Below are positions 12,330-63,856 of a DNA stretch of 64,000 nt, one piece after another. The stretch's first letter is position 1, and each line of letters begins with the position of its first letter. A program made the position numbers and the translations under genes. The notes under the pieces are model-generated. The model was not told where the DNA came from. It did not search any database and saw nothing but the letters and a program-made list of their open reading frames with translations. Origin of the DNA: Ramazzottius varieornatus (taxonomy: Eukaryota; Animalia; Tardigrada); contig BDGG01000001.1 in NCBI GenBank assembly GCA_001949185.1, forward strand, positions 8,155,067 to 8,219,066. The letters are read 5' to 3'.

Positions 12330-15290
12330 TGAGTTGTGGGGAGTGTACGAAAGCACGCTGGAAGGGGTGTGGAGAACCTCGAACAACGCTGAAGCCTGGC
12401 ATGGTGCGTTCGGAAATCAGGTTGACTGCGCACACCCGGGAATCTACAAGTTTCTTGATGGACTTTCAAAGGAACGGAAGTTCATCAAGGCGCGTGTGGA
12501 GGCACTTCGTGTTGGGGGTTCTTTACCGCCGAGGGACAAGTACTACCTAAAATACTCACAGAAATTGGTCGACATTTGTGAGTCGTATGTCCGTGCTCCC
12601 CGCCTGACCGAAGACTATCTGAAGCTGGTCGCTCGAAACATCGACATTGTGGCAGCGGTGAAGAAACGCCGGGTTGATAACGGTGAATAGTTTGGATACG
12701 ATTCGCTTTTTAGCATCTTTATCTGATCGCCTTTGTTTGCTCTTCGCCGGGTTTTATTCCAGATAATCAACTTTTCATTTAAGCCGAGTAGTTCTCGGCT
12801 TAAGGTTCATTGGTCTGTCACGGTTTTCTTCGTCAAATTATCTGCAGGGTATATTCGTTAGGTGTTTGATGAAGCAGTCAGTGGGGGGGTTCTGGCGGTG
12901 CATCAATTAGGGACTTTGCAGAAGATTTGTGTAGTGGGAAGCGTTCTTCGGGGAAAGAGGTCTTCGGGTCTGACGTTCTTCGGGTTCGAAGTTCTTCGAT
13001 TTCGAGGCTGTTAGGAGAAAGCGGTCTTCGGGTCTGGTTTCGATACTTCGGGGCAAGGGCTCTTCGGGTTCGAGGCTGTTAGGTTTGCCAGTTAGGGGTC
13101 AGAGTATGTTAGGGGAAAACGTCGTTAGGGGCCGAGGTACGGGGCCCTTATGGAACACAGGAAGACGATGTTTACAGGCTGAGAAAAACAGCAATAATCG
13201 TGCCAAATGGGAGCTCCGCATACAAACTCTACAAGATTATTTTTTTCTCAAATAGCGCACGTTCTCAATATTGTTGGCAGGAAGCATGCGCCACTCGGAA
13301 AGTGTATTATCCGAAGTGGAGCCCTGTGGCGGTGATACTGGCTGATGCTTGCGCCACTTTCCCAAACTTCCGAATGGAATAAACAAAGATATGGCGGTTA
13401 TGAACTATTTTGGCTTTAGTTTCACCATTCTTCTCAAGCAGATAATTCTCTGCTGCAGTGGTGGCCCATTCAATTTTAATTCTTTTTGACAGCTGGAAAT
13501 CAAATGATTGGCGGTTTTGAGCCGTCAGGTCGGATTCGCATGCTTCTCGAGACCTGCTGGGACGACGGCCCAAGCTGCCAGACTGTCATTCGTTAGAGTC
13601 CTTCGAAGTATCGTAAAGATTGTCAGGCGAAGTAACGCAACATTGTTGACTACCTAATCCGACACATGGGAAAACATGCTGTCAGTCTAGAGCAGAAAGT
13701 CCACCACCAGATGGAACAGTTTACGCTGGAGAAACAACCTTCAGAGGAAATTTTATCTGGAATGCTTTCAAAGTCATAATTTATCTCTTTTCTTGCTGTA
13801 GCGTATTTCACGCAGGAGTTCGTGCATTGCAAGCTATTTACTTCAGGACCATCTTGGATGCACTAACCAAAGGGCAAACCGTTCTTCCCGAAAGTGAGCG
13901 GGAAGTAAATCAAAGAGCGAACTGAGTTTTCTTCCAAACTTTTTTTAATTTTAGCGTTTAAGAGTACCGCAATCTACTTCAGCCACGTCATCGGTTTCAC
14001 GGAAGCTGTGGAACAAGCGAAGTTCCCTCTAAAGATCGTGAATATCCTCACTGGCCTGTACAGTGTCTGTGACAATGTGATCGCTGATTACGACGTTTTT
14101 GAAGCGGAAGCCGGTGAGTGCGATGCGCCTTCAGTCCAGGGCTCGTTCTTTTATGTTGCTTTTCTGATGTTGTTCCCCTCTTTTCCAGTCGGCGACGCGT
14201 ACACGGTAAGTGTCCTTTCTGAATCCCTTACACTAAGTGTTCCGTCTGGAACCACCTGCCTGTTTGCAGATTGTTGGTGGTCTCCCGGTCCGCAATGGAA
14301 ACCTCCACATTCAACACATTGCTTCGATGACTCTCGTGTTACGGAAAGAAGTAGGGAATATACAAGACGGGTGGCGGCCTCTCATGTAACCTTTCGATTA
14401 TGTGTGAGGATACATTATGGTGAGTTTCTAAGACCGAGAATTCTTTCTTCCGATGTGGTCTACGAACAACTTCTGATTTCTGATTTCTTGGAATACCCTG
14501 TGTATCGTCGGTGGTGGATCACGAATGCCTCGTTACTGTTTGTAAGTGTCCGTTTACAAAAGTAATCAACCTACGTACTTTGTCAAACGTCTTTGCGTAG
14601 ATTCGGAGACACTATCAATACGTCTAGTCGCATGGAAGCTCATGGCGAAGGTGAGTCTGGCGTGAACGGCTAGAGCAAAGCTCCACGAGTAGTGTACCCC
14701 TTCAATGGAAACTAATATTTACCCAGTTGTTCTTCCAGCTGGAAAAATCCATCGTAATCCCCGCCAAAGAGCTGCTTGGCCAATTTCAACAGTTTGTCGT
14801 TCTACCAGGCGGAAAAATAAATGTCAAGGTTAGTGCAAATTTTCTGATAAGGTCTGTCCTGATCATAATATACCAGATATAGTCCACTCGCTCGAGAAGT
14901 GTACAGCGCTCTTCGATTTCGAGATGTCGAAATTACCGTAAACACAAAAGAGTTTGCCATAAACATTTTTCGATTGTTTGTTGATTTACGCACCTGATGC
15001 ATATGGCGGAAAACAAAAAGTTGATTTTCATTCAGATTGATTGCATGTGAGCTGTTGACGTCACTTTCTTTTGTTTTTGGTAAGCTGTACGGTGAATGTT
15101 TGACCGGTGCCAAATTGAAACCGAAGAGCGGTGTATACTTCTCGAGGGAGTGGACTGTACCGAGATCAGGAAGTTCAGATGCACACCTCAAGATTGTTTT
15201 CCTTATGACGACCTTTCTTTTACTGCGGCAAACGACTGATGTAAACATACTAGTGGAAACCGACCGTCTATTTGAAATTTTCAAGTCAGA

Positions 15291-17514: not shown

Positions 17515-17582
17515 GATAACACTTTTCACGGCACAGCTTGTAGAGTCATGAATCTTGGCGTGTGATATTTTTAAAATAATCT

Positions 17583-17788
17583 GGGATCCCAGCAAACAAC
17601 CTCAACGTGATCGTGTTTCTTCTGAGTGGCGCACGCTTTTAGCCATTTACACCGAGAAGGTGCGCCGCTTGAGACAGCCTTCAAACTCGACAAGATCTTT
17701 TTTCAAGGGGCACACGTTCTTGGTATCATTGACCGTAAGCGTGCGTCACTTCGAAAGCCATCTTGTCGAGTTTGTTTGTCCAGCTCCC
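17583..17788. repeat. GTGGCGCAC palindrome family, 2 units (intergenic)
   Basis: GAGTGGCGCAC..GTGCGCCGCTT, AAACTCGACAAGATC, CTTGTCGAGTTTGTTTGTCCAGCTCCC. Confidence 0.8.
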
Positions 17789-17826
17789 AGATTACCGTCA
17801 CGAAGATCACACCGGAAAATTTACGT

Positions 17827-21084: not shown

Positions 21085-23137
21085 ATGGACTCAAGCAAGG
21101 CTAAAGAACCCCAGTACCAATCGGGTTTCGGCAACTACTTCCGGTCAACCGACCCAAGATGCCCAGACGCCCTTCCCGAAGGACAGAACAACCCCCAAAT
21201 GTGTCCTTATGGCTTGTACGCTGAGCAGTTATCGGGAACAGCCTTCACTGCACCACGGGAAACCAACAAGCGAACCTGGTTTTACCGTATCCGACCATCG
21301 GTCATCCATCGACCGTTCGCCGTAAGTTTTATCTTCATGCTGGCCGTGCATTATTCGCGTGGTTCTACTGAGGATAAAAATGAGATATGGGACAAAAAAC
21401 TGGGACAAAAATGCCGGCAAACGAAACGTACAAGGGCGTTTTTCCCAAGTGGCGTACTCTTCCAGCCAATCACAATACGAACTTGCGCCCCTGAGGATGA
21501 CGATCCTGTGCGTTCCGTTTGCCGACCTCCCAAATGATGGTGACTGTGACTTATTGTTACAGAAATACGAGCACGCGGGTTTTCCCGACACCTATACCGA
21601 TGTCGCACCCAACCCCAACCAACTACGCTGGAAACCCTTTCCCATCCCAAGTTCCGATTCCCCCGTAGACTTTGTCGATGGTATTCGGACCATCTGCGGA
21701 GCCGGCGAGCCTTCCGTTCGTCATGGGTGCGCTGTCCACATTTACGCATGTAACGCCAGCATGGAAAACAAGGCATTTTACAGCTCAGATGGCGACTTCC
21801 TCATCGTACCCCAACAAGGTAAGCTACGGTACCTTCCGATGACATTGTTGTCCTCTTGTGACGATATCTAACTTCTGGGCAGGTACTTTGAGGATCAGGA
21901 CCGAATTTGGCGACATGATCGTCGAGCCGAATGAAATCTGCGTGATTCAGTTGGGGATGAGGTTTCAGGTTCTGGTGGACGGTCCTTCCCGTGGTTACAT
22001 CCTGGAGGTTTTCGACAGTCATTTTCAGCTGCCAAACTTGGGAGTTATTGGTAAGCTTTCTTTGAGTTTTAGTTCTTTAAATTCCCGATACCGAAGTGAT
22101 GTTCCTCCCTCCTAACAGGTGCCAATGGCTTGGCCAACCCTCAGGACTTCTGGACTCCAGTGGCGGCTTTCGAAGAGAAGGAAGAGACATATAAAATCGT
22201 CAATAAATTTCAGGGCTTTTTATTTGTCGCGGAACAGGTTAGCCTAGTTAGAGACCATTCAGACTATACGCCGGAATTATGAATGAAAAGCTGTCGTTTC
22301 TCTTACAGGATCACTCGCCTTTCGATGTGGTGGCCTGGCACGGGAATTACGTTCCGTACAAGTACGCCTTGGAGAACTTCGTGGTAGTGAACACAGGTAT
22401 CGAGTACTCTGCTGATGTGAATATTCTGTTGATATTTCTCGCAAGGATCGATGTGTCATTGGTGGTTCGCTCTCAGTGTCTGTGGACCACATCGACCCGT
22501 CAATCTTCACCGTACTGACTTGTCCGAGCGACAAACCCGGGACCGCCATTGCCGACTTTGTCATCTTCCCACCACGGTGGGGTGTGGCCGAACACACATT
22601 CCGACCTCCCTACTACCATCGTAACTGCATGAGCGAGTTCATGGGCCTCATTAAAGGCAACTACGAAGCCAAAGTACTGTAATGCAGGAGAAAGATCTCG
22701 TCAAACAAACTTTATAAGGTTGTTTTCTCAAGCAGCGCACATTGTCGATGTTGTTCGCTGACAGTTGCGCCACTTGGAAAAGCGATCTGGTCGAGTTTGT
22801 TTTGTTTGCGTACTGCAAGTCTCCATCAGTACAGTTGAGTGAGTATCCTTTTGTGTTTCAGGAAGGAGGTTTTCAACCAGGTGGCGCTTCGTTGCACAGT
22901 ATCGGAACACCTCACGGACCGGATGCCCTTGCCTTTGAGAAGGCTTCGAGAGCTGATCTGAAACCCGAACGTGTGGCTGACAACACCATGGCCTTCATGT
23001 TCGAATCCTCCTTGAGCCTCAAAGTAACTCATTACGGCAACACGGACTGCCGAGCCGTCGACGAGAAGTACTATGAATGTTGGAAGCCACTCAAGAAATA
23101 CTTCGATCCAAACAGCCGCGATGTAAAATTAACCTGA
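21085..23137 (+). CDS. HGD: Homogentisate 1,2-dioxygenase (7 exons)
   Basis: [82 protein letters not shown]; GT-AG introns. Confidence 0.97.
21402..21531. repeat. GTGGCGCAC palindrome family, HGD intron 1
   Basis: TTTTCCCAAGTGGCGTAC..TTGCGCCCCTG..GTTTGCCGACCTCCC. Confidence 0.75.
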
Positions 23138-24945: not shown

Positions 24946-26719
24946 ATGGCGGATCCTATGGATGCCAGCACTTCGAAAGCTCCAGAAAAGTAAGTCGGCC
25001 AACCGCACGTTCAAATGGCTGGAATCAAATAAATTCTCGAGACGTTTAGGCTCCTGTTCAGGGTTCCACTGATCAAGAAAGAAAAGATGACGGAGGAGGA
25101 GCATTCGGAAGAAATCGAAAAGGCGATATGGCGAATGCATCGACGAGGCGACGACGTCAAAAGAATAATGGCCAACCTGAAATTCTGCGAGTTGATTGTC
25201 TCCAGAAAATACATCAACATGGCCATCAAACGAGTGACGGTTCAAATGAAAGATTACATGCAGACCGATTCTCCTCCCGCTGTGGAAGAACTGGATGAAG
25301 GCATGGACGATTCACCGAAAACAATTGATGCAGAAATGACCGAGCACACCTCGAAGATCGAAAACGGGATCGATGAAGAGAAAGAAACCCAACTGGAAGT
25401 GGAGGACGAATCTATAGGAGATGCGCCTGCTGAGAGAGACGAGGAGGAACCTAAGAAGTCTCGAAGGATAAAGACGACAAATGAGCTGGTTGAGAAGCTC
25501 CAAGAGGACTTTCGGTTGTACCCTGACACCAAAGTAAAAATCCGAGCTGCAAAGTTTGGTATCGCCGTGGGGACACTGTGTCAAATCAAGCATAACATCC
25601 TCAAGATGCCGAAAGAGTCGGGCAGGACGTGGAAGTCGACACCACAGATGGTCGAAGGAATAGCTTGCCACATGCGAGACTTCCCGGAAATGAAGGTGAA
25701 GGATAGAGCGAAGAAGTTCGGGATCAGTGTGGGGACGTTGTGTCGCATCATGCACGATATCCTGGAGCTGCCTAAAAGATCGGTCACGCGAACCACACCT
25801 CGTGGTGGAGGAAAGGTGACGGGGCCCGAAGTTCCTCGGACAGTGGCACCTCCTTCCACTCTGAAGGTCACTGTGGTGAAAGAAAGAAAAGAAACAGTGG
25901 ACACCTCATCGCAGAAAAGCAGGTACTGTAGGACAATTGGACGTCGGTAAGTGATAAAATTGATTTTACCCAGATTGCCCTTTCGAGTGGCGTACGTTTC
26001 CCCCGTTATCGTCTAGACGCGTGCACCACTTAAAAAAGCGATCTTGCCAAGTCTGTGTTTTATTTTCTCAAGTGACGCACGGCACAATGCTATTGGTCGA
26101 AAGCGCGCGCCACTTAAAAAAACGATCTTGTTCGGTTTGATTGTTTTCTCAAGTGGCGCATGTTCTCATTGTTATTGATAGAGAGTCTGCACCGCTTGGG
26201 AAAACGATATGGTTGTGTTCAATAACCCAGTTTTCGTCTGGAATGATCGCCCCGGTGGTAATTTGGGCTGTATGTCAAGTGTTCGCATGTTGATACCACC
26301 GTAACGAGGGCGCATTTTGAGCGCGAGAGTTTCAGCGGGAGTGCCAAACTCATTTTTCCTGGTTGATTTGCAGGAAGCGCAAGAAGAGCGAGCCGGCGAA
26401 GAAGCCTGCACTTCTCGCCCCGGCTCGGTCACCCACGAAGAGCATCACTCAAATGTGTCAACTGCAGCTGAACGGCGAGGGAACCAGTCAGATGTTTGTC
26501 CTGACCTTCGACGCGGAAACAGCCGCGCAACTGTCGAACGAGGGCAGTGTGGGTTTGCAGATCCCCGGCAACGACGATATCGTTTGGGTGGTTAACTCGC
26601 CTTCCGCCATGAACCAGGGTAGTGAGGGCACAGTCGAGAATGTTCCTGAGACGGAACGTGAAGAAAGTCCTGTCAGAATAAGTGTGGAAGACCAGTGCTT
26701 CATCATCCCGTCACGTTGA
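24946..26719 (+). CDS. Putative DNA-binding protein with tandem Tc1/mariner-type HTH repeats
   Basis: In-frame exons 24946-24989, 25062-25922, 26374-26719; two ~47-aa repeats (P.xKVKxRAxKFGIxVGTLCxIxHxILxxPK); acidic tract; RKRKK NLS-like motif. Confidence 0.75.
25955..26225. repeat. GTGGCGCAC palindrome family, 3 tandem units
   Basis: Three AAGTGGCGCA / GCGCCACTT pairs in the HTH-gene intron. Confidence 0.8.
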
Positions 26720-27233: not shown

Positions 27234-28421
<1,188 letters not shown>

Positions 28422-31588: not shown

Positions 31589-32923
31589 ATGTCGGAGAAT
31601 GGTTCTGCTCAGGAGAAGTCGCAAAAGAGTGCGAAATCAACGCCGAAGCCTAAGCCGAAGGATCCACTTCTGGAGAAACGGTAATAAGGATTCCTCTGTT
31701 TTCCGCGACAGGCTTCAAGCGAACTATTTATGTATTCTCTCCAGGAAACAGGAACTGAAGCAGTGTGCTGATGAACGCGTGGCTGCCGAGAAGAGGGCTT
31801 ATCAGACAGTGCTGGCGCTAATCGAGAATCCCGTCTCGGAAGATGCTCTCCAACAAGCCGTAAGTCAATCAACCAAATCAGTCCATTCGTTTGCGAATGG
31901 CGCACCCTTGCAGTCTTACTGCTTGGAAGCATGCGCCACCTGAAGTGGAATTAATTTGGTTTGGTATGAGATTCGCTTTGTTTTTCTGCAGCTCGTTGAA
32001 TACCTTCTGCCTTGTTCTCACAGGCCAAATACATCGACCCAGGTCACTACAACGACGTGACTGAAGAACGAGCTTTAGAGAAGCTCTGTGGCTACCCGCT
32101 CTGCAGTAACAGCATCGTGGGCAGCAACTCGAAAAAAGTCACTTCTCCAGTCAGCCGCAACGCTCACTTCCGCATCGACTGCTTCTCAAACAAAGTGTAC
32201 GACGTAACGGAACGGAAGGTAAGAATTAGAACTTCGTTGTAAATTTAGCCTCCGTTCGACATTGCGCATGATTATTCTCTCAGCTCACTTCGAAAATGAT
32301 ATGAGAACAAACTTTCCATTGTATGAGGCAAATTCCAACCGGAGGCAAAATTGTTCAGTCGACTTTTCGTTTCCTTCTCTGATATTTCGAATCTTGTAGA
32401 AATACTGTAGCGGAAAATGCTACGGAGCTTCCATCTTCTACCAAAAGCAGCTTTCTACCACACCAGTCTGGCTGAGGAAAGGTGAAAAGCTCGACGAGGT
32501 CGAACTCATTCCTCTGGACAAAATTAGGTGAGAAAACTTTTTCAAGTACTGAGACTTAGGCAAACAGAGTAGACAAGTTCGTCTTTCTAAGTAGAGCGCT
32601 CTTCGGTCAGTAACACTGTAAACGTAGGCCTCTTGGGAAAACAAACAAACTCGGCAAGATCATTCCTCCAAGTGGCGCACGCTTCCAGCTAGTAGCTTCG
32701 GAGATATGCGTCACTTGGGAAACCAGACTTGCCGAGATTACCCACCTTACGTTTAGCTTCACTGGGGATATGCGAGAGGGGAAATACTTCAGGTTTGTTT
32801 TCCAGAGGAGTGCCCGGACTTCCAGTTAGCATAGACGACCCAGTGCAGACTGCCCTGCTGGACGAAGTCAAAGCGATGAAGTTGGGTGAGAGTGAAAGAG
32901 AAACTATCCATTCTGACAAGTGA
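31589..32923 (+). CDS. RPAP2: RNA polymerase II CTD phosphatase RPAP2/Rtr1 (short form)
   Basis: 5 exons; YNDVTEER..LCGYPLC..NKVYDVTERK/KYCSGKCYGAS..PVWLR zinc motif. Confidence 0.88.
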
Positions 32924-47239: not shown

Positions 47240-47258
47240 GAGAGAGAGAGAGAGAGAG
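47238..47258 (+). repeat. (GA)n microsatellite
   Basis: gagagagagagagagagagag directly after the stop codon. Confidence 0.9.
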
Positions 47259-47562: not shown

Positions 47563-50179
47563 TTAGACGGCAGTTTCGCCGTGAGGCAGAGGGCTTCCGG
47601 GCTCGTAGTAAGGCCCGTCTTCCACCACACCTTGCTCTTCCCTGCGCTTGTCTTTGGAAGTGTCACCAGAATTCAGCACCAGGAAGCTCAGAATGTCCGA
47701 CAAGGAAACCATCCCGACGACACGCTCTTCGGAGAGCACAATCACACGGTGGACCTAAAATGAACACTGACCATTGATAAAAACGATTCCTGCCGAAAGA
47801 CAGACGGCTTTTGTTGGGACACTTACGTCACTCTTCATGATGATCTCGAGAACTGTCGACAACTGATCGTCCAGATCACATGTACAGACTTCTTCTGTCC
47901 ACTACAACCATCAAATAAACCATCAAACAAATTTCCACAATCTCCATGATGGTAGACAAGGAAAAAGATGCCTTACTTGGAGCTCGCTCCTTTCCAGAAG
48001 AGCCTGATGAACCGTCTTGGTTGACATACCGTATGTCTTGTTAGCCGCCAAGTTCTAAGAACAAATGGCAGCTTGGATCATAAACTCGACAAGATCGTTC
48101 TCTCAAGCGGCGCACATTTTCAGTGAAAGTGCATGGTGGCGCGCGCCACTTGGAAAAACAATCTTATCAAGTTTGTCTGCGCGGCTGCGAATATCCGTCA
48201 AAAGACGAACCGGATTTTCTGGAATGCGCCAACTAGGTTGAACTATGTTAGAATTACCATCACATCATATTTGGCATAGACATCCAAGAGCTTTCCGCTA
48301 TTATCGACCACGGGCAAGGCTGAGACATGGCTTCGGCCAAACTTCCTCAGGACTTCCGACAGCGAAGTTTCCGGGAGAACCTACCGGTATCGTCAAAATA
48401 TCATCAAAGAAGGGCAACAGTCTGAAAGTACGGGCTTACCGTTTCAAGGTTGGAGTAGGTGCCCATCCACGGTCGGAGATTTCTCAGCGTACGATGAAGG
48501 ATGTCCGGTAGCAAGAGCTTGGAAGCCAAGCCATCGAGGAGCTGGGCTTCGTGTCCTTGGCTGAAGTGGATCCACTGACCAAGCTATTATTACATTCACA
48601 AGTGCTGCTGTGAACAAGCATCAATACAAGGAGACTTACATAAGCCAGCAGGAAGGAGAGAATCCTCTTGTGGGTGAGAATGTACAACAGGTTGCCGGTT
48701 TGAGGATCCATCACCGGAAGACGGTGCACGTGGTTTCTTACCAGTGACTCCACGGCTTCTCGGATTCTGGAACATAGCGCCTTACATAAAACGATCATGT
48801 CACGCATATGCGACGCTAGAAAAACAGCACGGACAGGATCGTTGTGTCAAACGGCGCGCAGTTCCGGCCAGTCACAATGTAAACATGCGCCACTGGAGAG
48901 AACAGTCTTGTCGAGTTGTTCGCCAGGCTCCCTTAGATTTGCCACCGGAATGTTTCGCGCGTTTTCACTTACGAAGTCTCAGGACAGATCGAGATGAGCT
49001 GTCGCCGTTCATGGCCGAGTAGTTCTCGCCAAGATTGGACAGTCGATTGCTCCATGAGTTGGTCCAGCTCTTCCTGCAGAGCAGAAACCTGACTTCGTAA
49101 ACGTACGTTACCCATCTGTGTGAAAAAATCATCCAAAACTCACGTACCGAACTGAGTTCTCGGTTCTTCAGTAGAACGGCGATGAAGTCCGTGACGGTGA
49201 GCATACCTGGAAGAGAACGATTATAAGAAACTAAACAACCGGAAGCACAGCCTCGGCTTGCGGTCTTACCAACGAAGGCATTCTTTTCATTGTCCCAAAC
49301 TGGAGCAGCCCGAATTCCTGCATTAAGATCCATCTGAATATTTCTTGAGAAGAAGATTCAGAACAAAGTGCATGAGAAATGTACGTACCATTGAACACCA
49401 ACGCGTAGAAGGCCTTCTTGACGCACAGCTCGTTATGGAAGACGATCAGCCTGGTGCTGGTGGGAATTATGTCATAGCACGAATGCGCCTCGGCGAACTT
49501 GAAGAACACGCTGGAATATTCTAGGTCTATAATGCGGAAAACGACCATAGGACCATGTACAGAGGAAAAACAAATTTCACCACACATGAGCAAGAAATGT
49601 TCGACAAGATTGTTTTCTCAAGCGGCGCACGCCGCTAGCCAATGCAACTTGTAAAGTGCGCCACTTGGAAAATCGGCCTTGCTGAGTCTACACGCTTCCC
49701 TAAAGTGGCGCGACTTTGCGGTCTTATCAGCTAGAAGCATGCGCTTCTTGGGAAAAAACGATTCTGTTAGATTTGCTCGCCTGGGCCAAATATTCGAACT
49801 TACGCCGTTCGTTCCCGGCAACTCCGTCGTACGTATATTCGCTGTCTTCCACGGGGTACTATGAAAGAGAAACAGGTACTTTCGCAAAATACAAGCCGGA
49901 TTCTCGGAAAGAAATGAATTTCGATACCGATAGGCTTACCGAGCAAACCTTTCCTTCGGAATTTCGGTAAATCACCTTCAGGTGATGAGGAGATCGCTCC
50001 GAACTGGCGTCAGACAAAGAAAAGTTGGTGCTCGTACTGTCCCATGTCCTGTTCTGTGAGACATCGACATCTCCGGACGGCTCGTTGCTGGTCGTTCGAT
50101 AGAGGTTGCTCGTCCGCTTCTTCCCAACCGTCGAGCTGTTTTCCAGCGTCGTGGCTGGAAACGTGAAGCGCCGCGACAT
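47563..50179 (-). CDS. PRKAG: AMP-activated protein kinase gamma subunit-like (4 CBS domains)
   Basis: [86 protein letters not shown]; ~11 exons. Confidence 0.9.
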
Positions 50180-50764: not shown

Positions 50765-53700
50765 ATGTCCGACGAATCGTTTAACCTAGAGTACGAAGCA
50801 GCTGGACAGTCGCATATCGAAGAAGTCCAGGATGATCTGGAGGAGAAAGTCGGAGAAGGTAAATCCTTGAAATTTTCAGATGACTGACATGGTGCTGAAT
50901 GCTGATGCTTTCCTTGCCTTGCAGGCGGAGAAAACGATGAGGAGAGTGCCGAGCCCGAATACGAAGTCGAGCGCATTTTGAGTCGCCGTCTTGTTGGGAA
51001 GCGGAAGACTGAGGAATACTTGGTCCGGTGGAAGGGATACGAAAGCGAAGACGACACCTGGGAGCCGAAAGAATCGTTAGATTGTCCAGATTTACTGAAG
51101 GCATTCCTCAAGGAACAAGCAGAGGCCTCAGGTGAGTGACCGTGAGTCGGTAGAGAGTAGAAGCGGATGATGGCAGTGCTCGAAAATGGACGAGAACATA
51201 CGTAAACGGGTACTGATGTTGCTGTTTCGTTTTCGAGACCGCTTGACTTGATTGGCTTATTGCTGTGGGCTGATTTGCGTAGAGTTGCAGTAGTGTGTCC
51301 CTACGCCGCAATCAAATCAAACACTGAGCGATATGTTCAATCAAGGAATTGATTGGAATCCAGAAATTCGGAGATGTTCGAACGTGTTTTGTTTCGTTGA
51401 AATTCGCTCAGGCTTAGTAACCGATCCTTTTGGTAACCGATCCCCTGGTGTTTGCAGACGGTGAAAGGGAGGAAGAGGAGGACGAGAAGACTGACGATGA
51501 CGTTGAAAACGCAGAAGAAGTTCCAGAAGGGAAATACGCGGTGGAGGGCATTCTCGATCGGCGAGTGCTGCCTAAGCTTGGTCGTCGTCGAAGCGCGGTG
51601 GTCGAATACCAAATCAAATGGAAAGGTAACCGCTTCACCGTTCTGCAAGATGTTTTGATACTATTCATGATCGGTTTGAAACTATACAGATTACGACGAG
51701 ACCACATGGGAGCCCGAGAAGAACCTGAACTGCGGGCAGTTACTGGAACGCTTCGCCAAAGACCATCCAGATTTGATGGCTGGTACGCCTTTGTTCTTTT
51801 GTTGTTGCAACCCTTTGACCTTTTGTGTTGTTTGTTCTTGCCGTTTTGTGTAGATTTGGCAGTGATGGTCAAAAATCCGGCTCGCCGTAGTCGAGCCTCG
51901 AATGGAACGATCAAGAAAGCCGCCGGTTCAGCCAAGAGAACGGAAACGGCTAACTCGCGCAGATCATCAAGGAAGGCACCTTATACCAACAGAAACTCCA
52001 CTCGGACGGCACAGGCTGCCCGACCACGCCAGCGAGTTCTCCAGAGAAACTCAGACGCGCGGCAAGAAGGTACATTTTGCAGCTCCGTTTTACAGCTTTG
52101 AGATTAGTGTTGTACATCCAGCAAGAAGCTCTTTTGAAGAAGGCTGAAGAAAATCAGTCAGAACTCGGAACTGTGGCGTACTCGTACAGTTGCACTCGAA
52201 GTCTCGAACGGTTAAAAGCGGATGCCGTCTGTGCCGCTTCTGGTGGTAAACCAGCGGGCGCTGGCGGTAACGCATGAGCCGTTATCGTGAGTAGGAGTTA
52301 CGCCGACTGATGGGGATAGTCGTACGACTTGCACCTACTGGGCTGTCAGTAATACAGTCCGGTCGCTCAAGAAGTGGACACCATTTTTCGAAAATCAAAG
52401 CAAACACAAGGGTGCTCGCCATAAGCACTTTTGATTGACTGTTCGTTCGTTCACGCAACAGAAGCAGCCTGTTGCATTCACTTTTTGTTCTCTGTCCAAA
52501 GTTCCAAACCTTGTCCTTCTTATCGCACCGAGTCTTCATCAGACAAGCATCGGACATTGGGATTGTGAAAGGATGGTCAGAGGTTGACGGCTTGACTATA
52601 CAGAATTGCTTCGGAAATTTAAGACTTCTCACATAGTGGAAAAGAAGTAGTTGATTTTCTCTCACATTGATTGTTGGTAGACTCTTGACGTCACCTCCTT
52701 CTGTTTTTGGCAAGCTTTACGGTAAATGTTTGACTCGTGAAGAATAAAAATGGAAGAAGGATGTCGACTTCTCGAGCGACCGGACTGTATATTGTTCCGC
52801 CCAGCTTCTTTCAATTTTTCACTTCCGCGCAGCTTCTTCCAGTTTCACAGATGATTACAAGGAAGCGTCTGACGCCGAGAATGTTCAGGAAGAAGACGAT
52901 AATGACGAGGTGAAAGAGCAGCAAGGCAGTGACACAGATGGCGATAACGAGGAGCCTTGCGAGTACGAAGTGGAAGAGGTGGTGGGTCGCCGGGAACGTG
53001 GTGCTAACCGGATGGTCGAGTACTGCCTGAAGTGGAAGAACTACAGGAAGACTAGCTGGGAGAAGGAGGAGAACCTGACGCATTGCATTGACTTGTTGCG
53101 TGAGTATGAGAAGGCTCGAAAAGAGAAAGGCATCAAGAACGACGATGACAATGATGGAGGTGGTGACGAGGACGACGAAGGCTACAGCCCGCCTCGGTCA
53201 GCTCGTCGTAAAGTTCCAGCCCGAAAGCAAGTCGGTGGAAGGCCACCGGTGAAGAAGCGAATGGCCACTACGCCAAACAAGGCAAGCTGTTGAAGGCAAA
53301 CTTAATCGACAAAGTTGTTTTTCCAAGTGGCGCATACTGTCAGCCAATTTCACTGTAAACGTGCCTTTCTTGGGAGAATAGTTTTGTAGATTTCGTTTCC
53401 CCAAGTCAAAAGTTGAGTTAGGTGGAAACGTTCCCGTAATTAATGATTAATGTTCGGTTGAAGGTGGCGAAGGGAGTGCCCCGCAAGTCCGTTAGAAGAC
53501 CAGCCAAGAAGGAGGCTGAAGAGGCTAGTGGAACTCTGTCCGAGTTCCTGACGGACTTTCGGGGTCAGCCGTTGCAGAAGGACAACGAGGCTGGTCCGTC
53601 AACGTCGAAACGGACTTCTCGATCGGCAGCGCGATCCACCTCTCGGGGAGCCTCACAGAATACTGCCAAGAAGCGAAAGACATACGATGAGCTGGGCAGC

Positions 53701-54472
53701 GCCGAAACGTCCAGTGCTGTCTATTCCAAAGGTGAGTCTTTCACTCTTTCTCCATGCTGGAATAAGTAAAACAGAGAACATCAACGAAGTCGACAAGATC
53801 GTTTTCACAAGGCACACGCTTCCATCCAACAAGAATGAAGGCGTGCGCCACTTGGCGAGATGGTCTTTTACGAGATTTGTTTTTGTTACCAAGTGGCGCA
53901 CTTTCTCGGTATGATTGGATAGTGGAAGAAGAACGATCGTGTCGAGGCTGTTTGGTTAGCTCATAAACGTCAGCATTATATTTTCTGGTTGTTTTCAGTG
54001 CTTCCGGTTTTCCTGATGAAAGGCAGCAGAGTTCTGTCCAGGCGAAGCTGGAAGTTCATGCCGACGGACGTGGATGACTGGTCGTTCCTGGATGTCAAGA
54101 ATTTCGCTGACGAGGAGGAAGCCGTGCGCGTCTTGGGCAAGGGGAACTTTGATGGCTTTGATGAAACCTTCTACATCATCGTTCAAGGTGCGGCTCCCAA
54201 TCTGTACATGGGCGTTACAAGCAGGTTCTTGGAGCGTGAGTTTCCCAACACGTTCAAGCACCATCAAGAAGTGGGAACCTTTGAGGATGATGACGAGAAC
54301 GACAAAGTATGGTAAAGCTCCGCACTTCGACTCGTTCTTTTTCTTACAATGTTCGTTGTTTTCAGGACGAAGGAGATCACACCCAGAACAGTTCGGATAT
54401 TTCAGTGAGCTTTGCTCTCTCTCGGTAAATTGGCTTGTTACTGATGAGTTTATTCTATTTCAGATGGAGTAA
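50765..54472 (+). CDS. HP1-like protein with three chromodomains and a divergent chromoshadow-like C-terminus
   Basis: CD1 EYEVERIL..YLVRWKGY..DTWEP; CD2 KYAVEGIL..YQIKWKDY..TWEP; CD3 EYEVEEVV..YCLKWKNY..SWEK; acidic linkers, basic hinge; last exons 54366-54404 and 54464-54472 predicted. Confidence 0.85.
52355..52787. mobile_element. Tc1/mariner-type MITE (same CAGTCCGGTCGCTC terminus as 39896)
   Basis: TA-CAGTCCGGTCGCTCAAGAAGTGGACA ... TGTCGACTTCTCGAGCGACCGGACTG-TA in a chromo-gene intron. Confidence 0.8.
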
Positions 54473-55159: not shown

Positions 55160-56501
<1,342 letters not shown>

Positions 56502-57082: not shown

Positions 57083-60000
57083 TCATATGCGTTCTTTGGA
57101 GGGTACCCAAGCTTTCTCTGCGCTTTCCCGCTTGATGATGTCTTTGACGCGCGAGTAGATCTCTTCGGGAGTGTCGCCAGTGACGACGGCTGTGAAGCAG
57201 TGGCCAAACTCCTTTTCCAGTTTGGCGCACTTGTCGAAGCTGCGCTGAGCTTCCACCTCAGTCATTCTTCTGCTCATTTCCAGGATGGAGTCCACCGACT
57301 TTGGCTTGATGTAGATCACAATGGGGAAGAGGTTGTTGGCGCGCAGGCGACGGACGGCGGCTCCACTCACGTCCAAGACACAGTGCTTTCCCTGTCCAAG
57401 AAAATTCACGTTAAAAATCCGAATTTTCGGCCGAATTCACACCTCAATTTTTACTATTCTCGAAAAACTCATCCGCGAACTTTTCATATGATAGCGAACA
57501 ACTCACCGGTCGACAAACAAGCCCTACGACATTGTTTTACCATGTGGTGCACGTTTCGGTATTGCTGGCTGAAAGCGTGCGCCACTTGGAATGACGATCT
57601 TGTCCAGTTTGATCGTCTTTCCAAAATGGCGCACCTATCCATCAGTACTGGCTGATAGCATGCGCCACTCGGAAAAACATTCTTGCCGAGTTTGTTTGCC
57701 GAGCTTCCACGTCGAATTTCGAAAGTTCACAACGTTAGGTACCTGTTCAGCGACTTCCTTGACGGCGGCCACACTCGTGCCGTACAAGTTATCACTAAAC
57801 TGTCCGGCTTCGATGAAGAGACCAGCTTGAATGTCGCGCTCCATCTGCTCGCGAGATTCCACAAAATGGTAATCGCGGCCGGAAACTGCAGAATGAGGAG
57901 AAAAATAATAAAGTCTTTACCACGCTAGTTGGGTTCGCGCGTTCAGAAAGCCCGGCCAAAAGACTGTGACTAGGGCAGCGACTTACCTTCGTTCTCGCGT
58001 CTGAACCTTGTGGTATGAGGCACACAGGAAGCAAAGGTATCAGGGAACTCTGCTATCAGGTCGTCGCTAATCCGATCCTTCAGCGGTCCCATCACTATGA
58101 CAGGCCGAACGTACCTGAGACGTTCAAAGGCAACAGGCTCATACGAATGTATCGTCTCTTCCGGTCCTACAAAGCAAAACAACGTTACAGATAAAGTCAA
58201 ACGAAAACCATCCCAATCGTGATAGAGACAAAAATCCATGCTTTTCTCACGTTGCAGCCCATTGACGCAACGTAAGAAAAGCGTGTTCTGAAGATGGTTT
58301 CTACGGCTGGGAAACATCTGATTGGAACTTACGGTCCGATTCGCTCGTGTCATCTCCGCTATGTTCCTTCCCGCCTTTGAAGAAGGTAAACTTTTTGGCG
58401 CCGTTCTTATCTTTGTCCTTTTCCTTCTTCTTCCCAGTGAACCTGTCGAGAGTGCTTGTGCTGGCTGATTTGTTGTGCGAGTCGTTAGGTTCGAATTTGA
58501 CGGATTTGAGGCGAGCGCGTTCTTTCCTTTCATATCTGAGATTGAAATCACATGCAAATGAGACAGAAGGACGATTGATTGTGTCAGAGGACAGATGGTG
58601 ACGTACCTCTGTCTTGAGGGAATAATTCCCAGGCCTTCCTCGACACCATCAGCGTTAATCCTCTTGGCCTGCCACCATTCATCGTCGCTGGCGTTCGTCA
58701 CATGCAAAACGTCGCCGATGCAGAACGGCAATCCGCGACTTGGTAAGCCGCTGTCTTTCGACGGATCGTAATCGAATTGAGCTCTGCAAACACAGACGGA
58801 AATTAGTTGCAAATCACATAACTTTAAAAGCAGCGCATGGGAAACTCAGTAGACAAACTCGACAAGACCATTTTCCAAGTGGCGCACACTTCCAGCCGAA
58901 AGCGCCGTGACAGTACGCTACTTGAGAAAACAATTCCATCAAGTTTGTGTTTTCAAGTGGGGCACACTTCTATCCAGTAATACCGAGAAAGTGCGCCACT
59001 TGGGAAAGCAATCCAGCTTGACCAGATCGTTTTCCAAGTGGCTCACGCTTCCAGCCAACAATAAAAAAAGTTTGCGCCACTCGGGAAAAAGTTTTTGCCG
59101 AGCTCGTCGAGTTTCGAAACGGAGCTATGAAATCACGGACAAGCACCAGATGCACTTCAACCAATTTAAAATCCGAAACATGGAGATGCGCCTACCTGAC
59201 GTAGAGTGTGCGCTTCATGGAAGGACGAAGACTTCCGGTGCTGGCATTGATCATTCTCTCCTTAATTTCCTGGATCTTATCCTCGAATATCTGATATTCT
59301 GCAAGGAATCAAAAACTACTTATTAGAATCGACTTCTCATCGAAAGATGACCGAAAATCCGGCTCAACATAACAGGGTTAGACTAAAGCCTGGTCTATCG
59401 CGAAACTGACCGGTTATTCCGGCAGATGACGTAAAATAATAATAATTATCAGTAAGTATTCAAGCCGCTCATGTTTCGCACTGGTAATAAATGGGTCAAA
59501 ACGCTTGTAGAGCTGCTCAAAAATGCACGACCAAACCACAACTTGTACCAGATACACGTGATTCCACACTAAAGGACCATCAAACATTTTCGTAGAAACA
59601 TACCGCAATGAATTATAATCAACAATCATCCTCCCGAAAATTTTCCTGCCAATTCCTCAAAGGCACTATCCAAACCTGGAAACTTCATTTCAACGAAGGT
59701 CTGGCTGTCAGAATATCACAGCAAGCAACTGAATACAAGGCTGCAGATTCGGGTGTCTCAGTATCCCCACTTCCTGCTTCGCATCGAAAAGGACGTCAAG
59801 CAAAATGCTCGGAATGAAGTGATGATCTCTTCATTTTGCACTTGTAAAAGCGAAGAGATCAGCTCGTTGAATCAATAGAAAGCATCCTTGCACATTCATT
59901 TACGGCGTAATTAAATTACGAGGGATGCATAATGCAATCTTGGTAAACGGCCCGAACGTCGAGCATTCACTCAACATGCCCTGTAAATCATCGCTTCTCG

Positions 60001-63000
60001 TACAGTGTAGTCATCCTCAATGCTTTATGCATCGACCACTGTCTTCCTTCCTCACCACGGTGGCACTGACAAACATTAAACTTCACTACTGTGCACTAAA
60101 CTCAAGCTGTATGCAACTTCCGTGAGTGAACCGCGCTGTCAAACGCGCAAATACCGCCCCGGTCCGAAACCCCACGGACTAGTCATGCTTTTCCACGTCA
60201 TACTCTCATGTTATCGCACTTCATCATTACGAGGCGAAAGCATGGTTTTCGGGTCAGACTTCCCACCGGGTGCCTAGCAGAGCAAAGCGAAAGTGGTATT
60301 AACAGCTGGAGGGGATTGTTTGCTGCGTCTAGCTTTTGAAGATTGTCGCTTCCATTGGGCAGATTGTTTACGTAATACGCCAGAGAGACTCCTCACCAAA
60401 GTTGACTTCCATTTCATCTCAACTGTCTGTCGGCAGCCCGCGTCACACTTGCCTTCACCCGATATTACATCCTCATTCAAAAATTTCCCAGTGCATTTTT
60501 CGATGCTCTTTCCTCCAGACATGCGCCACTGATGACTCCGATATCGATCTCACTACTTCAACTCCCTTTATGCTTCTTGATGAGCACAGGGCCGTGGCAA
60601 ACTCCTCGCACACTCTTCCTCTCAAGTTCGAACTGCAAATTCTAACCCACACTTTCTTCGTCTGCGCAAGTCATTAGTAGTCTCACGCTTTTAGAGAGCT
60701 TAACCTTATGACACCATGTCCATGCGCGAGATCGTCGAGATCATTTTCCCCCAAGTGGCGCACACTGCCAGTTAACACCAACCGCGTGCACCATTTGAAA
60801 ACATGATCCTGACGAATATGTTTTTCCAAGTGGCGCGCTTTGTCTCTGTCTTAGTATAATAGCCGGCGCCACTTTGAAATACAGTCTTGTGGAGTAATGA
60901 GTCCCTGGCCTGTGTCCCAGTCCGCTTTTTACTGGGGCCAACACAGTTCACTGCGCTTTGATCCTATACGTCGCTCAAGCCTAACCCTACCGCACAAGCT
61001 ACAATGAGGAGTTGGATAGACTTACCTTCCGGTCGATACTGCGCCACAATAGTCACCAGGTTCCCCGCTCCTTTCAAGGCTTCGGCGGCATCCTGCAAAA
61101 GAAGCAGCCTAGTCTTCACTTCTTCCTCGAAACTCGACTGTAACCCTACAAGTTAACGACGAGGAAGCCAAGAAGAAAAACACAATCATGTGTACCTCGT
61201 GCGAAGCGTGCTTGATGTTGATTCCATTGACGCTGATAATTCGATCACCTGGAAGGGAAAAAAGGTCTCTTCGTTCAGCTCTCTGACAACAGAAGTCATC
61301 ACGAGCGACTTTTGACAAACTGTACTCTGGAAAAAAGAGGCAAAGAAAGGATAAAGGTACCTCGTTTCAGCTGTCCATTGAGGTCGCAACTTCCGCCTGG
61401 GATAATGTAGGAGATGTAGATGCCTTCCCCTTCCTCTCCCCCGACGATATTAAACCCTAGACCGCCCGGACCTTTCGTCAACACGACAGTTCGAAGCTCC
61501 CTGCAACACAGAACAATATTCCCATGATACCTATCGAAAAGAAAACACTTTGGCAAGATTCCCCCAGTAGACGGGTAACACCGGATGGTTTTTCGAAGTG
61601 GCGCATAGGCTGAGCCAAAATTAATGAAACTTTCCGCCACTTGAAATAACAATCTCTATCAATTTATTTACCCACGTCCCAATTCTTTCTGACGTTTTTC
61701 CATCTAATGTTCATTTCGGATAATTGGAATCCGATTTTTGTTTCCGATTTATAGAAAGATAACCAAATTATTTTTCCAGATTTTATCACCTGGAAGGTTC
61801 TCCTTGGTCCTCGTTGGAGTCGGTGGAGGCGACCGGTGCTTTGTAGACGGGCATCTCGGTGGTGTCGCTTCGTTCGCTCCTGGTTCCCGGTGTAGGACTT
61901 CGTTCGTTACGGCCTCGTTGAGCAGGTGAATCGAAGGCAAAGTTGCTGGAGGAGGGATAGCGTTGAGCAGGCGAGTCGCGACGGATAGGACCATCGAGTC
62001 CATCCGCGAGGCCACTATGTGCCACCAAGGACGGTGTGGAGCTGCTGACGATCCCTTCGCTCCACGATTCCGGAAGGGTGGCGGCACGCTCGACATGCAG
62101 CGTCACCGTCTCTCCGGTCGACTTTAGGACGTTGACGGCAAAGTCATGCTGACAGTTCCGCACGTCGGTTTCTCCTACCTGTCAAATTCACAACAATAAA
62201 CATCAGAATTCGCTTTACTGCTCAGAGACATGTTCCCCGAATCTCCGAAGGAATTCCCTTGCAAGAAAGCCATTGGGGAGCTCGGCAGACAAACTCGCTT
62301 AGATAATTTTCTCCAGTGGCGCAAGTTTTCAGCGTTTCTGGTTGACAGCCTGCGCCACTTGAAGAAAACAATCTTCTCGAGCTTGTTTGCCTACTGTGAG
62401 TCCCACCTGAAAACTACTGGACTTCTGCACGATCGTTTAGAGACGCACTGATAAAGACAAGCTACTTCTGTCTTCGCCGAAAGCAATCAACAGAACTTCC
62501 GGCAGAAATACGGCCGGTGAAATCGCTGAAGGTGATTTCCCCCGAAGACGCATAAACAACAATCAAAAGAATAATGTCCAGAATGACGTTCGGCAACTCG
62601 CGAAACGCCAAAGCTCGAGAAATAAAATGAAATTTTACAGCCAATTTTGAGAACTGTCGCGCGGAATGATTTCTCGGTAGGAAATATTTGGAATGGAAAA
62701 TGTGCGAGGAAGTGTCGAGTGAAAGATTTACTCACCGCCAGAATTTTGTCCTCGACCTGTAGTCTGCCATCTACCCAAGCAGCTCCGCCTTCGACAATCT
62801 TGGTGATAAAAATGCCATTATCGCCCAGGACGTGCTGATTACCAATTCCACCAGCAATGCTAATACCCAAACCTAAACACCAACAAGCAAACCAACCTTT
62901 AACCCTTTCACCAACAAGTGCAAACAGCCAATTTGTTCCACCGTGAGTGTTCAGATTTCTTCATCAGCCCAGAATTCCCAGCGAGGCAAACAGGAGCTCG

Positions 63001-63856
63001 GCAAACAAACTCGGCTGGGTTTATCCTCCCAAGTGGCGCACGTTTCCCATATCCCTTGCTGGAAGCGTGCTCCACTATGAAAACGCCGATCTTGTCGAGT
63101 TTATATGTAATGGTTTTAATTTTGAAAAAGCTTCTTTTCGCTGGATGATTTACCCTTTCTGGAGAATCTCATTCGGTGTATGGTGTGAAGAGCTATTTCG
63201 AAGACTTTTTCCATGGTAGTAAACACGCCATGAAATTTACATACGGTACCTCGATTGCCTTTGACAATGTCAAAGCGCATCTTCTGGGGCTTTCTTCGCT
63301 TGATGCGTAGCGTCAGGATGTTGCCTGCTCGTCGAAGAGCGGCGACAGCCACTTCGTGGTCGACATCAACGACGGCATCATCGTTGATCTGCAGTACCGT
63401 GTCACCGACCTGAAGAACTCTTCGCTAAGCGAGAGAAACATCGAACAAAGAAAAAAGAGCGAGACCTTACTTTAAGCCGCCCATCTAATTGCGCCGCTCC
63501 GCCCTCGATGATCTTGCTGATGTAGATGGAGGGATCGTTGTCGACGTGTGGATTATCGTTTCCGCCAGAGATGGAAAAGCCCAAGCCCGTTGCACCCTGA
63601 CGAGAACAAATTCCCTTTATTCACTTAAGCTTTGCTCCCTTCATCAGCAAGCTCAATCAATACCAATCATCACGGCAGGGAAGACGGAAGACTTGCTACA
63701 AAGTGATCCAGAGTTACTCACGCGCTCCAGAATAATCTCTTGGTATTCAAAGTCCGAGCCGGAAGCTGCAGCGTCAAGTGCTGCTTGACTGGTTGCTGTT
63801 GCTGGCACAGTATCCCCAAAGGAGTTGAATGAAGAGCGACTGGGCCGCTGACTTGC
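57083..63856 (-). CDS. dlg1: Discs large MAGUK (PDZ1-3, SH3, guanylate kinase); 5' end outside the window
   Basis: [102 protein letters not shown]. Confidence 0.96.
58839..59110. repeat. GTGGCGCAC palindrome family, 3 tandem units, dlg1 intron
   Basis: GGGAAACTCAGTAGACAAACTCGACAAGACC..three arm pairs..TTGCCGAGCTC. Confidence 0.85.
62275..62404. repeat. GTGGCGCAC palindrome family, single full unit, dlg1 intron
   Basis: GGGGAGCTCGGCAGACAAACTC..CAGTGGCGCA..TGCGCCACTT..CGAGCTTGTTTGCC..TCCC. Confidence 0.8.

What the first reader, a model, noticed from the sequence alone, without database searches (positions are those of the whole stretch)
13209..63105. A modular palindromic repeat that colonises introns throughout the window (~28 loci)
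Seen: an approximate consensus GGGAGCTCGGCAAACAAACTCGACAAGATCGTTTTCCCAAGTGGCGCAC-N~25-GTGCGCCACTTGGGAAAACGATCTTGTCGAGTTTGTTTGCCGAGCTCCC. It recurs at ~13209, 17583, 21402, 22690, 25955, 27426, 31865, 32555, 35230, 36320, 39040, 39841, 41146, 42307, 45342, 46065, 48070, 48790, 49590, 53282, 53775, 56035, 57505, 58839, 60722, 61550, 62275 and 62992. About 25 copies lie in introns of HGD, the HTH gene, Rab6, RPAP2, both ZP genes, QTRT1, AMPK-gamma, the chromo gene, MOSPD1 and dlg1. None lies in an exon and only one is in the TE-rich first 17 kb. The core arms are conserved while the loop varies. Most, but not all, introns over ~180 nt carry a copy; the 55-100 nt introns do not. Inference: an old MITE-like family tolerated or retained in introns, because its orientation-independent hairpin could fold an enlarged intron back to near-minimal effective length. 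Alternatively it is a dyad binding site or a dsRNA/editing substrate in active genes.
Basis: partly seen in the sequence, partly recalled or inferred. Interest (0 to 1): 0.8.

Follow-up and report, generated by a model that had tools for sequence, protein, structure and literature searches.

The report
Tardigrade intron repeat with protected core
A 128-base mirror-image repeat, likely a long-dead mini-transposon, sits in 24 of 64 introns of this tardigrade genome window; its two arms have decayed independently, so it likely does not work as an RNA hairpin, but a 9-base motif inside it has changed far less than the rest, which would fit a protein-binding site kept by the host.

Summary
The genome is that of the tardigrade Ramazzottius varieornatus. 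The consensus is a 128-nt near-perfect palindrome; the 'variable loop' has its own consensus. Copies lie in 24 of 64 introns (24 of 33 of 160 nt or more, 0 of 31 shorter), about ten times denser than in nearby UTR/intergenic DNA. The splicing-hairpin idea fails its own test: arm pairing equals shuffled arms (1023 vs 1024), G-U pairs equal A-C on the transcript strand (169 vs 163), and one copy is split by another transposon. Unexpectedly, the motif AGTGGCGCA, present in both arms, has diverged 10% against 26% for the outer arm. This holds when copies are found by the outer arm alone, in both arms, and with no subfamily structure. Best reading: an old MITE-like family that explains most long introns here, with a core likely kept as a DNA-binding site. 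No target-site duplication or partner transposase was established, and no description was found in print. Comparing orthologous copies in a second Ramazzottius isolate would settle the host-constraint question.

The parts
13205..13359 (.). copy (2 units) in the transposon-rich part, just upstream of an exon-like piece of a decayed guanylate-cyclase-like sequence
17581..17790 (.). copy (2 units) 37 nt downstream of the GPAT stop codon; 3' UTR or intergenic, not tested
21409..21535 (.). monomer in HGD intron 21322-21562 (intron inferred from the reading frame)
22692..22811 (.). monomer in HGD intron 22674-22861 (inferred)
25939..26232 (.). 3-unit array in HTH-gene intron 25947-26373 (inferred)
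27421..27772 (.). 4-unit array in Rab6 intron 27366-27804 (inferred)
31896..31942 (.). core-only remnant in RPAP2 intron 31860-32023 (RNA joint)
32549..32744 (.). 2-unit array in RPAP2 intron 32528-32805 (RNA joint)
35214..35342 (.). monomer in ZP gene 1 intron 35075-35413 (RNA joint)
36315..36497 (.). array in ZP gene 1 intron 36274-36532 (RNA joint)
39028..39155 (.). monomer in QTRT1 intron 38990-39217 (inferred)
39836..40386 (.). 3-unit array in QTRT1 intron 39816-40423, its first unit split by a nested element
39894..40149 (.). nested younger element: 252 bp between duplicated TA, 34-bp terminal inverted repeats (91%) starting CAGT, inserted in the central segment of the repeat
41155..41350 (.). 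2-unit array between the QTRT1 3' end and ZP gene 2; intergenic by the contigs laid
42303..42427 (.). monomer 33 nt into the 1789-nt first intron of ZP gene 2 (RNA joint)
45342..45466 (.). monomer in ZP gene 2 intron 45260-45584 (RNA joint)
46058..46271 (.). 2-unit array in ZP gene 2 intron 46030-46305 (RNA joint)
48063..48191 (.). monomer in AMPK-gamma intron 48055-48257 (inferred)
48809..48935 (.). monomer in AMPK-gamma intron 48767-48972 (inferred)
49595..49790 (.). 2-unit array in AMPK-gamma intron 49527-49780 (inferred, GC donor)
53292..53411 (.). monomer in chromo-gene intron 53282-53463 (inferred, GC donor)
53783..53966 (.). 2-unit array in chromo-gene intron 53732-53998 (inferred)
57505..57709 (.). 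2-unit array in dlg1 intron 57392-57742 (RNA joint)
58838..59107 (.). 3-unit array in dlg1 intron 58784-59195 (RNA joint)
60727..60896 (.). 2-unit array in the 1727-nt dlg1 intron 59299-61025 (RNA joint)
61558..61684 (.). monomer in dlg1 intron 61501-61789 (RNA joint)
62272..62396 (.). monomer in dlg1 intron 62179-62735 (RNA joint); highest-scoring unit
62988..63120 (.). monomer in dlg1 intron 62873-63249 (RNA joint)

Best explanation
This is a 128-bp palindromic repeat, likely an old non-autonomous DNA transposon (MITE/foldback type), that sits in most of the longer introns here; its arms have decayed independently, while a 9-bp motif in each arm has diverged far less than the rest and is likely kept as a binding site for a host DNA-binding protein. 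Shown: palindromic consensus, high copy number, intron enrichment, independent arm decay, roughly 2.7-fold lower divergence of the motif. Inferred: the family spread from near-identical monomer and array founders into minimal (60-90 nt) introns; insertions in coding exons were purged; the motif was probably the binding site of the transposase or its partner protein; most divergence came after insertion, so the motif's slow decay reflects weak selection on, or protection of, each site on the DNA by a host or domesticated protein. The protein is not identified.
For: Anatomy: 59-bp stem, 7-nt loop, GG...CC ends with AT-rich flanks. Copy number: 1,168 of 1,290 DNA contigs of run X1 laid on 17 kb fit only partly, and summed depth at 57572 is 12,098 against 25 for single-copy DNA (some contigs belong to another family at 52.3-52.8 kb). 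Age: mean pair identity 0.62, best 0.77; no subfamily signal (P=0.385); monomers, array units and mixed pairs are equally alike outside the core (0.569, 0.570, 0.572; within an array 0.588); one unbroken 15,268-nt X1 contig spans 48085-63352, which suggests no young sibling of those copies (inference from my recollection of how such contigs are built). Core: 79 of 808 sites changed vs 522 of 1,986 in the outer arm (p=4e-24; 9-mer chosen after looking); lower than non-core in 39 of 42 units; the same trinucleotides are better kept inside the core than outside in 6 of 7 contexts; arms found with an outer-arm-only profile still show 10-11 of 11 core matches in 17 of 31 cases vs 14-20% simulated for neutral decay, and only 1 of 33 such hits lies outside known loci. 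DNA-level signs: 5' and 3' arms on the transcript are equally kept (8.3% vs 10.5%, p=0.37); non-intronic half-sites too (12%, n=12). Introns: 24 loci in 10.8 kb of residual intron vs 2 in 9.7 kb UTR/intergenic (p=3e-5); 10 of 24 host introns are 62-87 nt once the element is removed.
Against: No target-site duplication in the 3 loci with both ends recognisable and no matching transposase ends in the window, so transposon origin rests on anatomy. The termini, which cut-and-paste transposases need, are the least conserved part. Core mismatches follow a single binomial (37/33/14/3/2 observed vs 35/34/15/4/1) with no decayed subset and no redundancy effect (10.0% vs 9.6%), which fits a uniform lower rate or element-level selection as well as host selection. 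The 25-nt spacing is not specially kept (indels in 10 of 44 inner segments vs 5 of 29 and 12 of 38 outer segments). 40 of 64 introns have no copy. All statistics come from one window; no whole genome and no diverged isolate (run X22 was identical where it covered) was available. 36 of 64 introns are inferred from reading frames, and the AMPK-gamma model did not give one continuous frame (319 of 636 codons).
Confidence: 0.48

Rival explanations
1. Ordinary dead MITE: the core was kept only while the family was spreading, because many successive master copies needed the transposase-binding motif and drifted elsewhere; today all copies are neutral and introns simply tolerate them.
For: Core mismatches fit one binomial at about 10%, which could be the true post-insertion age. 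In PIF/Harbinger elements a Myb/MADF partner binds terminal or subterminal motifs (passage in bioRxiv 10.64898/2026.05.26.728016). 47 units drawn from thousands could look star-like even with many masters. One copy tolerated a nested insertion. Absence from the first 17 kb may reflect the youth of that DNA (terminal repeats there are 97-100% matched).
Against: Array and monomer types share one consensus and are equally distant; units in one array are barely closer than random pairs (0.588 vs 0.570); no shared derived changes between the two arms of a copy, which palindromic masters would leave; no long close sibling among the pieces listed (best about 81% over 86-95 nt; list truncated).
Confidence: 0.28
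2. The core is a mutational cold spot: it mutates less because of sequence context or because a bound protein or nucleosome shields it, with no selection and no function.
For: Homogeneous, binomial reduction at all half-sites; transitions and transversions are both reduced about 2-5 fold.
Against: Matched trinucleotides outside the core decay faster in 6 of 7 contexts; the GC-richer terminal segment decays fastest (0.34-0.39), so GC content does not explain it. Shielding by a protein would still imply binding.
Confidence: 0.12
3. One reading: the pre-mRNA hairpin shortens the effective intron and is retained for splicing.
For: Most copies still fold better than shuffles; copies are usually one locus per intron whatever its length (p=0.015 against a per-base model); intron minus element is often near minimal.
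Against: Watson-Crick cells 1,023 of 1,719 vs 1,024.3 shuffled; double compensatory changes 63 vs 63.3; G-U 169 vs A-C 163 on the transcript strand, 31 vs 31 in the core. 9 introns of 160-468 nt lack it and 6 of these are spliced in RNA contigs. Four host introns stay above 300 nt without it.
Confidence: 0.05
4. The copies are a source of dsRNA, small RNAs or editing substrates, like Made1-type MITE hairpins (recalled analogy).
For: Long hairpins inside transcribed genes; RNA contigs from other loci carry the repeat at high depth (468 and 262 in run X5).
Against: No pairing selection; no Rfam match; the motif is absent from the predicted Hypsibius miRNA table (another species); one contig covering the 48809 copy has no differing letter (contigs drop rare variants and may be DNA).
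Confidence: 0.05

Closest known systems
[quoted passage not shown]
   Same: Short, non-coding, long inverted arms with a tiny centre, high copy number, common in introns.
   Different: No target-site duplication shown; copies only about 62% alike; the internal motif, not the termini, is the conserved part; arrays of an about 82-nt module with a shared junction.
PHIS superfamily non-autonomous elements (PIF/Harbinger, ISL2EU, Pangu; PMC4482050 passages)
   Same: Ends begin with GG and flanks read AWWT; ISL2EU targets A|AT|T and Pangu duplicates ANT with AG or GG ends; Harbinger partners bind subterminal motifs.
   Different: The duplication itself was not demonstrated and no PHIS transposase was linked; this is a lead only.
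Modular foldback elements (Drosophila FB, Galileo; recalled)
   Same: Inverted arms built of tandem modules that carry a repeated short motif.
   Different: Much shorter; modules are themselves hairpins; no coding partner known.
Introner elements / invasive intronic elements (recalled; PMC7789003 seen only in a search listing)
   Same: A repeat family associated with a large share of introns.
   Different: Here the repeat lies inside pre-existing GT-AG introns (median 38 nt from the donor, 59 nt from the acceptor) and does not supply the splice sites.
Transposon-dispersed host binding sites, e.g. B2-SINE CTCF sites or helitron-derived MSL and HSF-1 sites (recalled)
   Same: A motif inside an old repeat decays more slowly than the rest.
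   Different: No protein or chromatin data here; the motif resembles the CTCF core only in part and differs at positions I recall as invariant.

Membership tests
MITE | short (<600 bp), no coding capacity | tested here: met
   128-nt consensus, loci 47-352 bp
MITE | terminal inverted repeats | tested here: met
   consensus folds into a 59-bp stem with one mismatch
MITE | high copy number | tested here: met
   27 insertions in 64 kb; 1,168 partly fitting genomic contigs on 17 kb, about 480-fold summed depth at one site
MITE | target-site duplication | tested here: inconclusive
   none in 3 of 3 loci with both ends; flanks biased to AWWT in 21 ends; copies about 27% diverged
MITE | autonomous partner sharing the terminal repeats | tested here: inconclusive
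   ends of the Tc5/pogo, MULE and two other inverted-repeat elements in the window differ; whole genome not held
MITE | empty orthologous or paralogous sites | not testable with these tools
   no diverged isolate among the runs laid
PHIS (ISL2EU/Pangu/Harbinger) derivative | GG/AG-starting ends | tested here: met
   ends read (T)GGGAG vs PMC4482050
PHIS (ISL2EU/Pangu/Harbinger) derivative | AT, ANT or TWA duplication | tested here: inconclusive
   AWWT flank bias but no clean duplication
Tc1/mariner-derived MITE (Made1 type) | CAGT ends and TA duplication | tested here: not met
   not in this family; met by the nested 252-bp element
Introner element | element makes up the whole intron and brings splice sites | tested here: not met
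   62-1,664 nt of other intron sequence remain; median 38/59 nt from the splice sites
Conserved structured RNA / splicing hairpin | compensatory changes and G-U tolerance on the transcribed strand | tested here: not met
   63 vs 63.3 compensatory cells; G-U 169 vs A-C 163
Known RNA family (Rfam 15) | match at gathering score | tested here: not met
   0 matches in the window; 0 tRNA
Transposon-derived host binding site | motif decays more slowly than the rest of the element | tested here: met
   9.8% vs 26.3%, with ascertainment control
Transposon-derived host binding site | constraint between orthologous copies; protein occupancy; effect of deletion | not testable with these tools
   needs a second genome, chromatin data or experiments

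The most novel reading that the evidence does not exclude
Ramazzottius has turned a dead transposon into a genome-wide array of paired binding sites (AGTGGCGCA facing its mirror image) placed in roughly a third of introns, perhaps tens of thousands of loci, where a host or domesticated DNA-binding protein marks or organises active gene bodies.
Probability: 0.3. Interest if true: 0.8.

Novelty: new variant of a known kind. Interest (0 to 1): 0.52.

Why it matters
Even as plain transposon debris the family accounts for 28% of intron bases here (4,110 of 14,892) and for most introns above 160 nt, so it would explain much of the intron-length spread in a model compact genome whose repeats are published only as 'unclassified' (65,730 elements, 19.7% of the genome; PMC5531438 S3 Table). 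If 24 of 64 held genome-wide, about 70,000 introns (13,917 genes x 5.02) would give some 26,000 loci; this is an extrapolation from one gene-dense window. If the core constraint is host-level, it points to an unknown sequence-specific chromatin factor in an extremotolerant animal and gives a defined 9-bp bait for finding it.

Tried and rejected
No whole genome is held, so no genome-wide scan. Metagenome scans: 0 matches to the 24-base pattern; 5 to a relaxed 20-base pattern, none with the outer arm, rejected as unrelated. Rfam 0, tRNA 0; Tandem Repeats Finder does not see the arrays (5 rows, none on them). No listed run is on record as RNA; the runs used are guessed RNA and showed spliced joints. 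Editing: contigs cannot show it; differing letters on copies come from cross-laid paralogues; one contig over the 48809 copy has none. Run X22, hoped to be a diverged isolate, was identical where it covered. Spacing constraint: suggested by 26 of 33 pairs at 25 nt, rejected because indels are no rarer there than in the arms. CpG decay: not evident; core CpGs are 84-96% kept; one search on tardigrade DNA methylation listed one paper, which I did not open. Subfamilies and recent local duplication: not seen. Redundancy between half-sites: not seen. The weak RING hit at 40900-41352 falls on the repeat itself and is rejected as a gene. Weak extra hit at 5891-5926 (outer arm only, no core) was left out of all counts. 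CTCF: only a partial recalled resemblance; PMC7854359 passages gave nothing on tardigrade CTCF. Three look-ups in earlier scan findings returned nothing. Literature: searches listed no paper describing this family. In PMC5531438 the first supplement search skipped files 14-27; only file 18 of those was then searched, and two archives are too large to read, so a repeat library there could hold it. Repbase and Dfam were not available.
Full report
Source. A GPAT-like reading frame at 17830-19200 matches a Ramazzottius varieornatus protein at 96% (the next hit, another tardigrade, 39%), so the window is from this tardigrade. No whole genome was held.

Observation. A 12-base half-site and its reverse complement occur as 33 pairs 18-32 nt apart, against 0.05 in Markov shuffles. 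A profile built from 12 monomers finds 28 merged loci, 4,689 bp, 47 units. So there are 27 insertions.

Anatomy. The consensus (printed) is 128 nt and folds into a 59-bp stem with one mismatch and a 7-nt loop. Many loci are arrays with a period near 82 nt. By eye, 14 junctions share one form (long right arm joined to a short left arm, no internal termini), and the unit after it has the same orientation in 13 of the 14; this suggests array founders rather than insertions into each other. Ends read (T)GGGAG; flanks are biased to AWWT in 21 scored ends, but none of 3 loci with both ends shows a duplication. The transposon ends in the window (Tc5/pogo, MULE, others) do not match.

Location. 28 introns come from spliced joints in contigs of guessed-RNA runs (the tables were truncated) and 36 from reading frames. 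Six inferred genes give continuous frames; AMPK-gamma does not (319 of 636 codons), and two donors are GC. The repeat is in 13 of 28 and 11 of 36 of these, 24 of 64 in all: 24 of 33 introns of 160 nt or more and 0 of 31 shorter. Density is 2.2 loci per kb of residual intron vs 0.21 in UTR/intergenic DNA of 17.5-64 kb (24 vs 2, p=3e-5) and 1 locus in the first 17.5 kb. Host introns hold one locus each; the five longest hold 4 where a per-base model expects 9.9 (p=0.015), though long introns may have grown later or hold other exons. Without the element 10 of 24 host introns are 62-87 nt, the size of the short introns: the arithmetic of insertion into minimal introns. Three loci are not in annotated introns: 13205, 17581 (37 nt past the GPAT stop) and 41155.

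Abundance and age. Of 1,290 contigs of DNA run X1 laid on 47001-64000 at 85% likeness, 1,168 fit only in part, and summed depth reaches 12,098 at 57572 against 25 for unique DNA: hundreds to more than a thousand other loci match even these few copies closely (part of the count is another family at 52.3-52.8 kb). Copies are 62% alike on average, at best 77%, with no subfamily signal (P=0.385). One X1 contig runs unbroken over 48085-63352 and the best listed relatives are about 81% over 86-95 nt, which suggests no recent activity (inference).

Test of the RNA-hairpin idea. Over 43 of the 47 units (those with 15 or more paired cells), 1,023 of 1,719 cells are Watson-Crick vs 1,024.3 when right arms are shuffled between copies; compensatory double changes 63 vs 63.3; no excess in outer, core or inner parts. 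On the transcript strand G-U and A-C mismatches are 169 and 163, 31 and 31 in the core. Most monomers still fold better than shuffles, as a decaying palindrome would. Six long introns without the element are spliced in RNA contigs.

The unexpected signal. Divergence is uneven: AGTGGCGCA (positions 43-51 and its mirror) has 79 changes in 808 sites (9.8%), the outer arm 522 in 1,986 (26.3%) (p=4e-24, window chosen after looking), the inner segment about 31%. The core is better kept in 39 of 42 units, and 6 of 7 shared trinucleotide contexts are better kept inside it. It is not ascertainment: a profile of the outer arm alone gives 33 hits at E 0.01, 32 in known loci, and 17 of the 31 that reach the arm's inner end have 10-11 of 11 core matches against 14-20% simulated; a search with the inner segment alone agrees. 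The exact 9-mer occurs 38 times in the loci and once elsewhere in the window. Both arms are kept equally on the transcript (8.3% vs 10.5%) and outside introns (12%, 12 half-sites), which points to DNA rather than single-stranded RNA. Against a simple 'one good site per intron' model, mismatches are binomial, show no redundancy effect, and the spacing is not specially kept.

Mechanism. Most likely the family spread as a non-autonomous DNA transposon from near-identical founders, survived where harmless (intron interiors, median 38 and 59 nt from the splice sites), and then decayed, except for the motif. Monomers and arrays are equally distant from each other and units of one array barely closer (0.569-0.572 vs 0.588), and arms share no private changes; this argues that most divergence came after insertion and hence that the constraint did too. 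A host or domesticated protein binding the motif is the simplest cause (0.48); none is identified. Rivals: selection on many master copies during spread, neutral today (0.28); a mutational cold spot (0.12); splicing hairpin (0.05); small-RNA source (0.05).

Comparison with what is known. It works like an old MITE, and meets the size, inverted-repeat and copy-number criteria; duplication and partner are unproven, so superfamily membership is not claimed. GG ends and AWWT flanks recall ISL2EU (A|AT|T) and Pangu (ANT) of the PHIS superfamily (PMC4482050, passages), whose Harbinger relatives use a Myb/MADF partner on subterminal motifs (bioRxiv 10.64898/2026.05.26.728016, passages). It is not an introner and not an Rfam family. 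The genome papers give only totals: mean intron 158 nt and repeats about 20% (PMC5531438, passages), 65,730 unclassified elements (its S3 Table), nothing on repeat families in PMC5034306 (passages), 4.3% classified transposons in PMC7943196 (passages). PMC9071541 and PMC7854359 (passages) added nothing on this family. Searches listed no description of it; subscription papers, Repbase/Dfam and most supplements were not seen. Made1, Cele, FB/Galileo, B2-CTCF and the CTCF motif are recalled, not from calls.

Verdict. Real, apparently undescribed, and mostly explained as an old MITE-like family; the splicing idea is not supported; the protected core is the part worth following. New variant of a known kind, interest 0.52.

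Noticed in passing
window 39894-40149 and 52353-52789: A second short family with CAGT...ACTG ends between TA (Tc1/mariner-like, recalled); the first copy is nested in the palindromic repeat, the second lies upstream of the chromo gene and attracts many genomic contigs.
   Followed up: partly
window 9708-12728 and 10548-12333: A MULE-domain element with perfect 41-bp terminal repeats encloses a Tc5/DDE_1 element with 153-bp repeats at 97%: nested, young-looking DNA transposons.
   Followed up: no
window 28961-29935: A roughly 1-kb foldback with arms 84-98% complementary and ATCG-rich sub-repeats, with the assembly gap (50 N) at its centre.
   Followed up: no
window 30030-30835: Further repeats hit by many RNA contigs of other loci, with loose ends clustering at 30824-30834.
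   Followed up: no
window 13480-14650: Decayed guanylate-cyclase-like sequence with in-frame stops (weak Pfam hit); the 13205 copy may be in one of its former introns.
   Followed up: partly
window 49527-49780 and 53282-53463: Two inferred GC-AG introns, both carrying the repeat within 0-10 nt of the donor; not checked against RNA joints.
   Followed up: partly
window 25033-25950: Host gene with two tandem helix-turn-helix repeats weakly matching transposase HTH families; a possible domesticated DNA-binding protein, no link to the repeat shown.
   Followed up: no
window 51421-52280: An open frame upstream of the chromo gene that reads like a second chromo-type paralogue by eye; no Pfam hit.
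   Followed up: no
window 56394-56500 and 56469-57390: The 3' ends of MOSPD (+) and dlg1 (-) overlap in the RNA contigs, which join a GT-AG and CT-AC introns in one record.
   Followed up: no
run X5 contigs laid at 45377, 58884, 59033: Contigs from other loci carrying the repeat have high depth (468, 262, 193), so some copies elsewhere may be in abundant mature transcripts.
   Followed up: no
   Followed up: yes
window 4361-5060 and 12895-13147, 8815-8916: Inverted repeats built of a 16-nt unit containing TTAGGG/TTCGGG.
   Followed up: no
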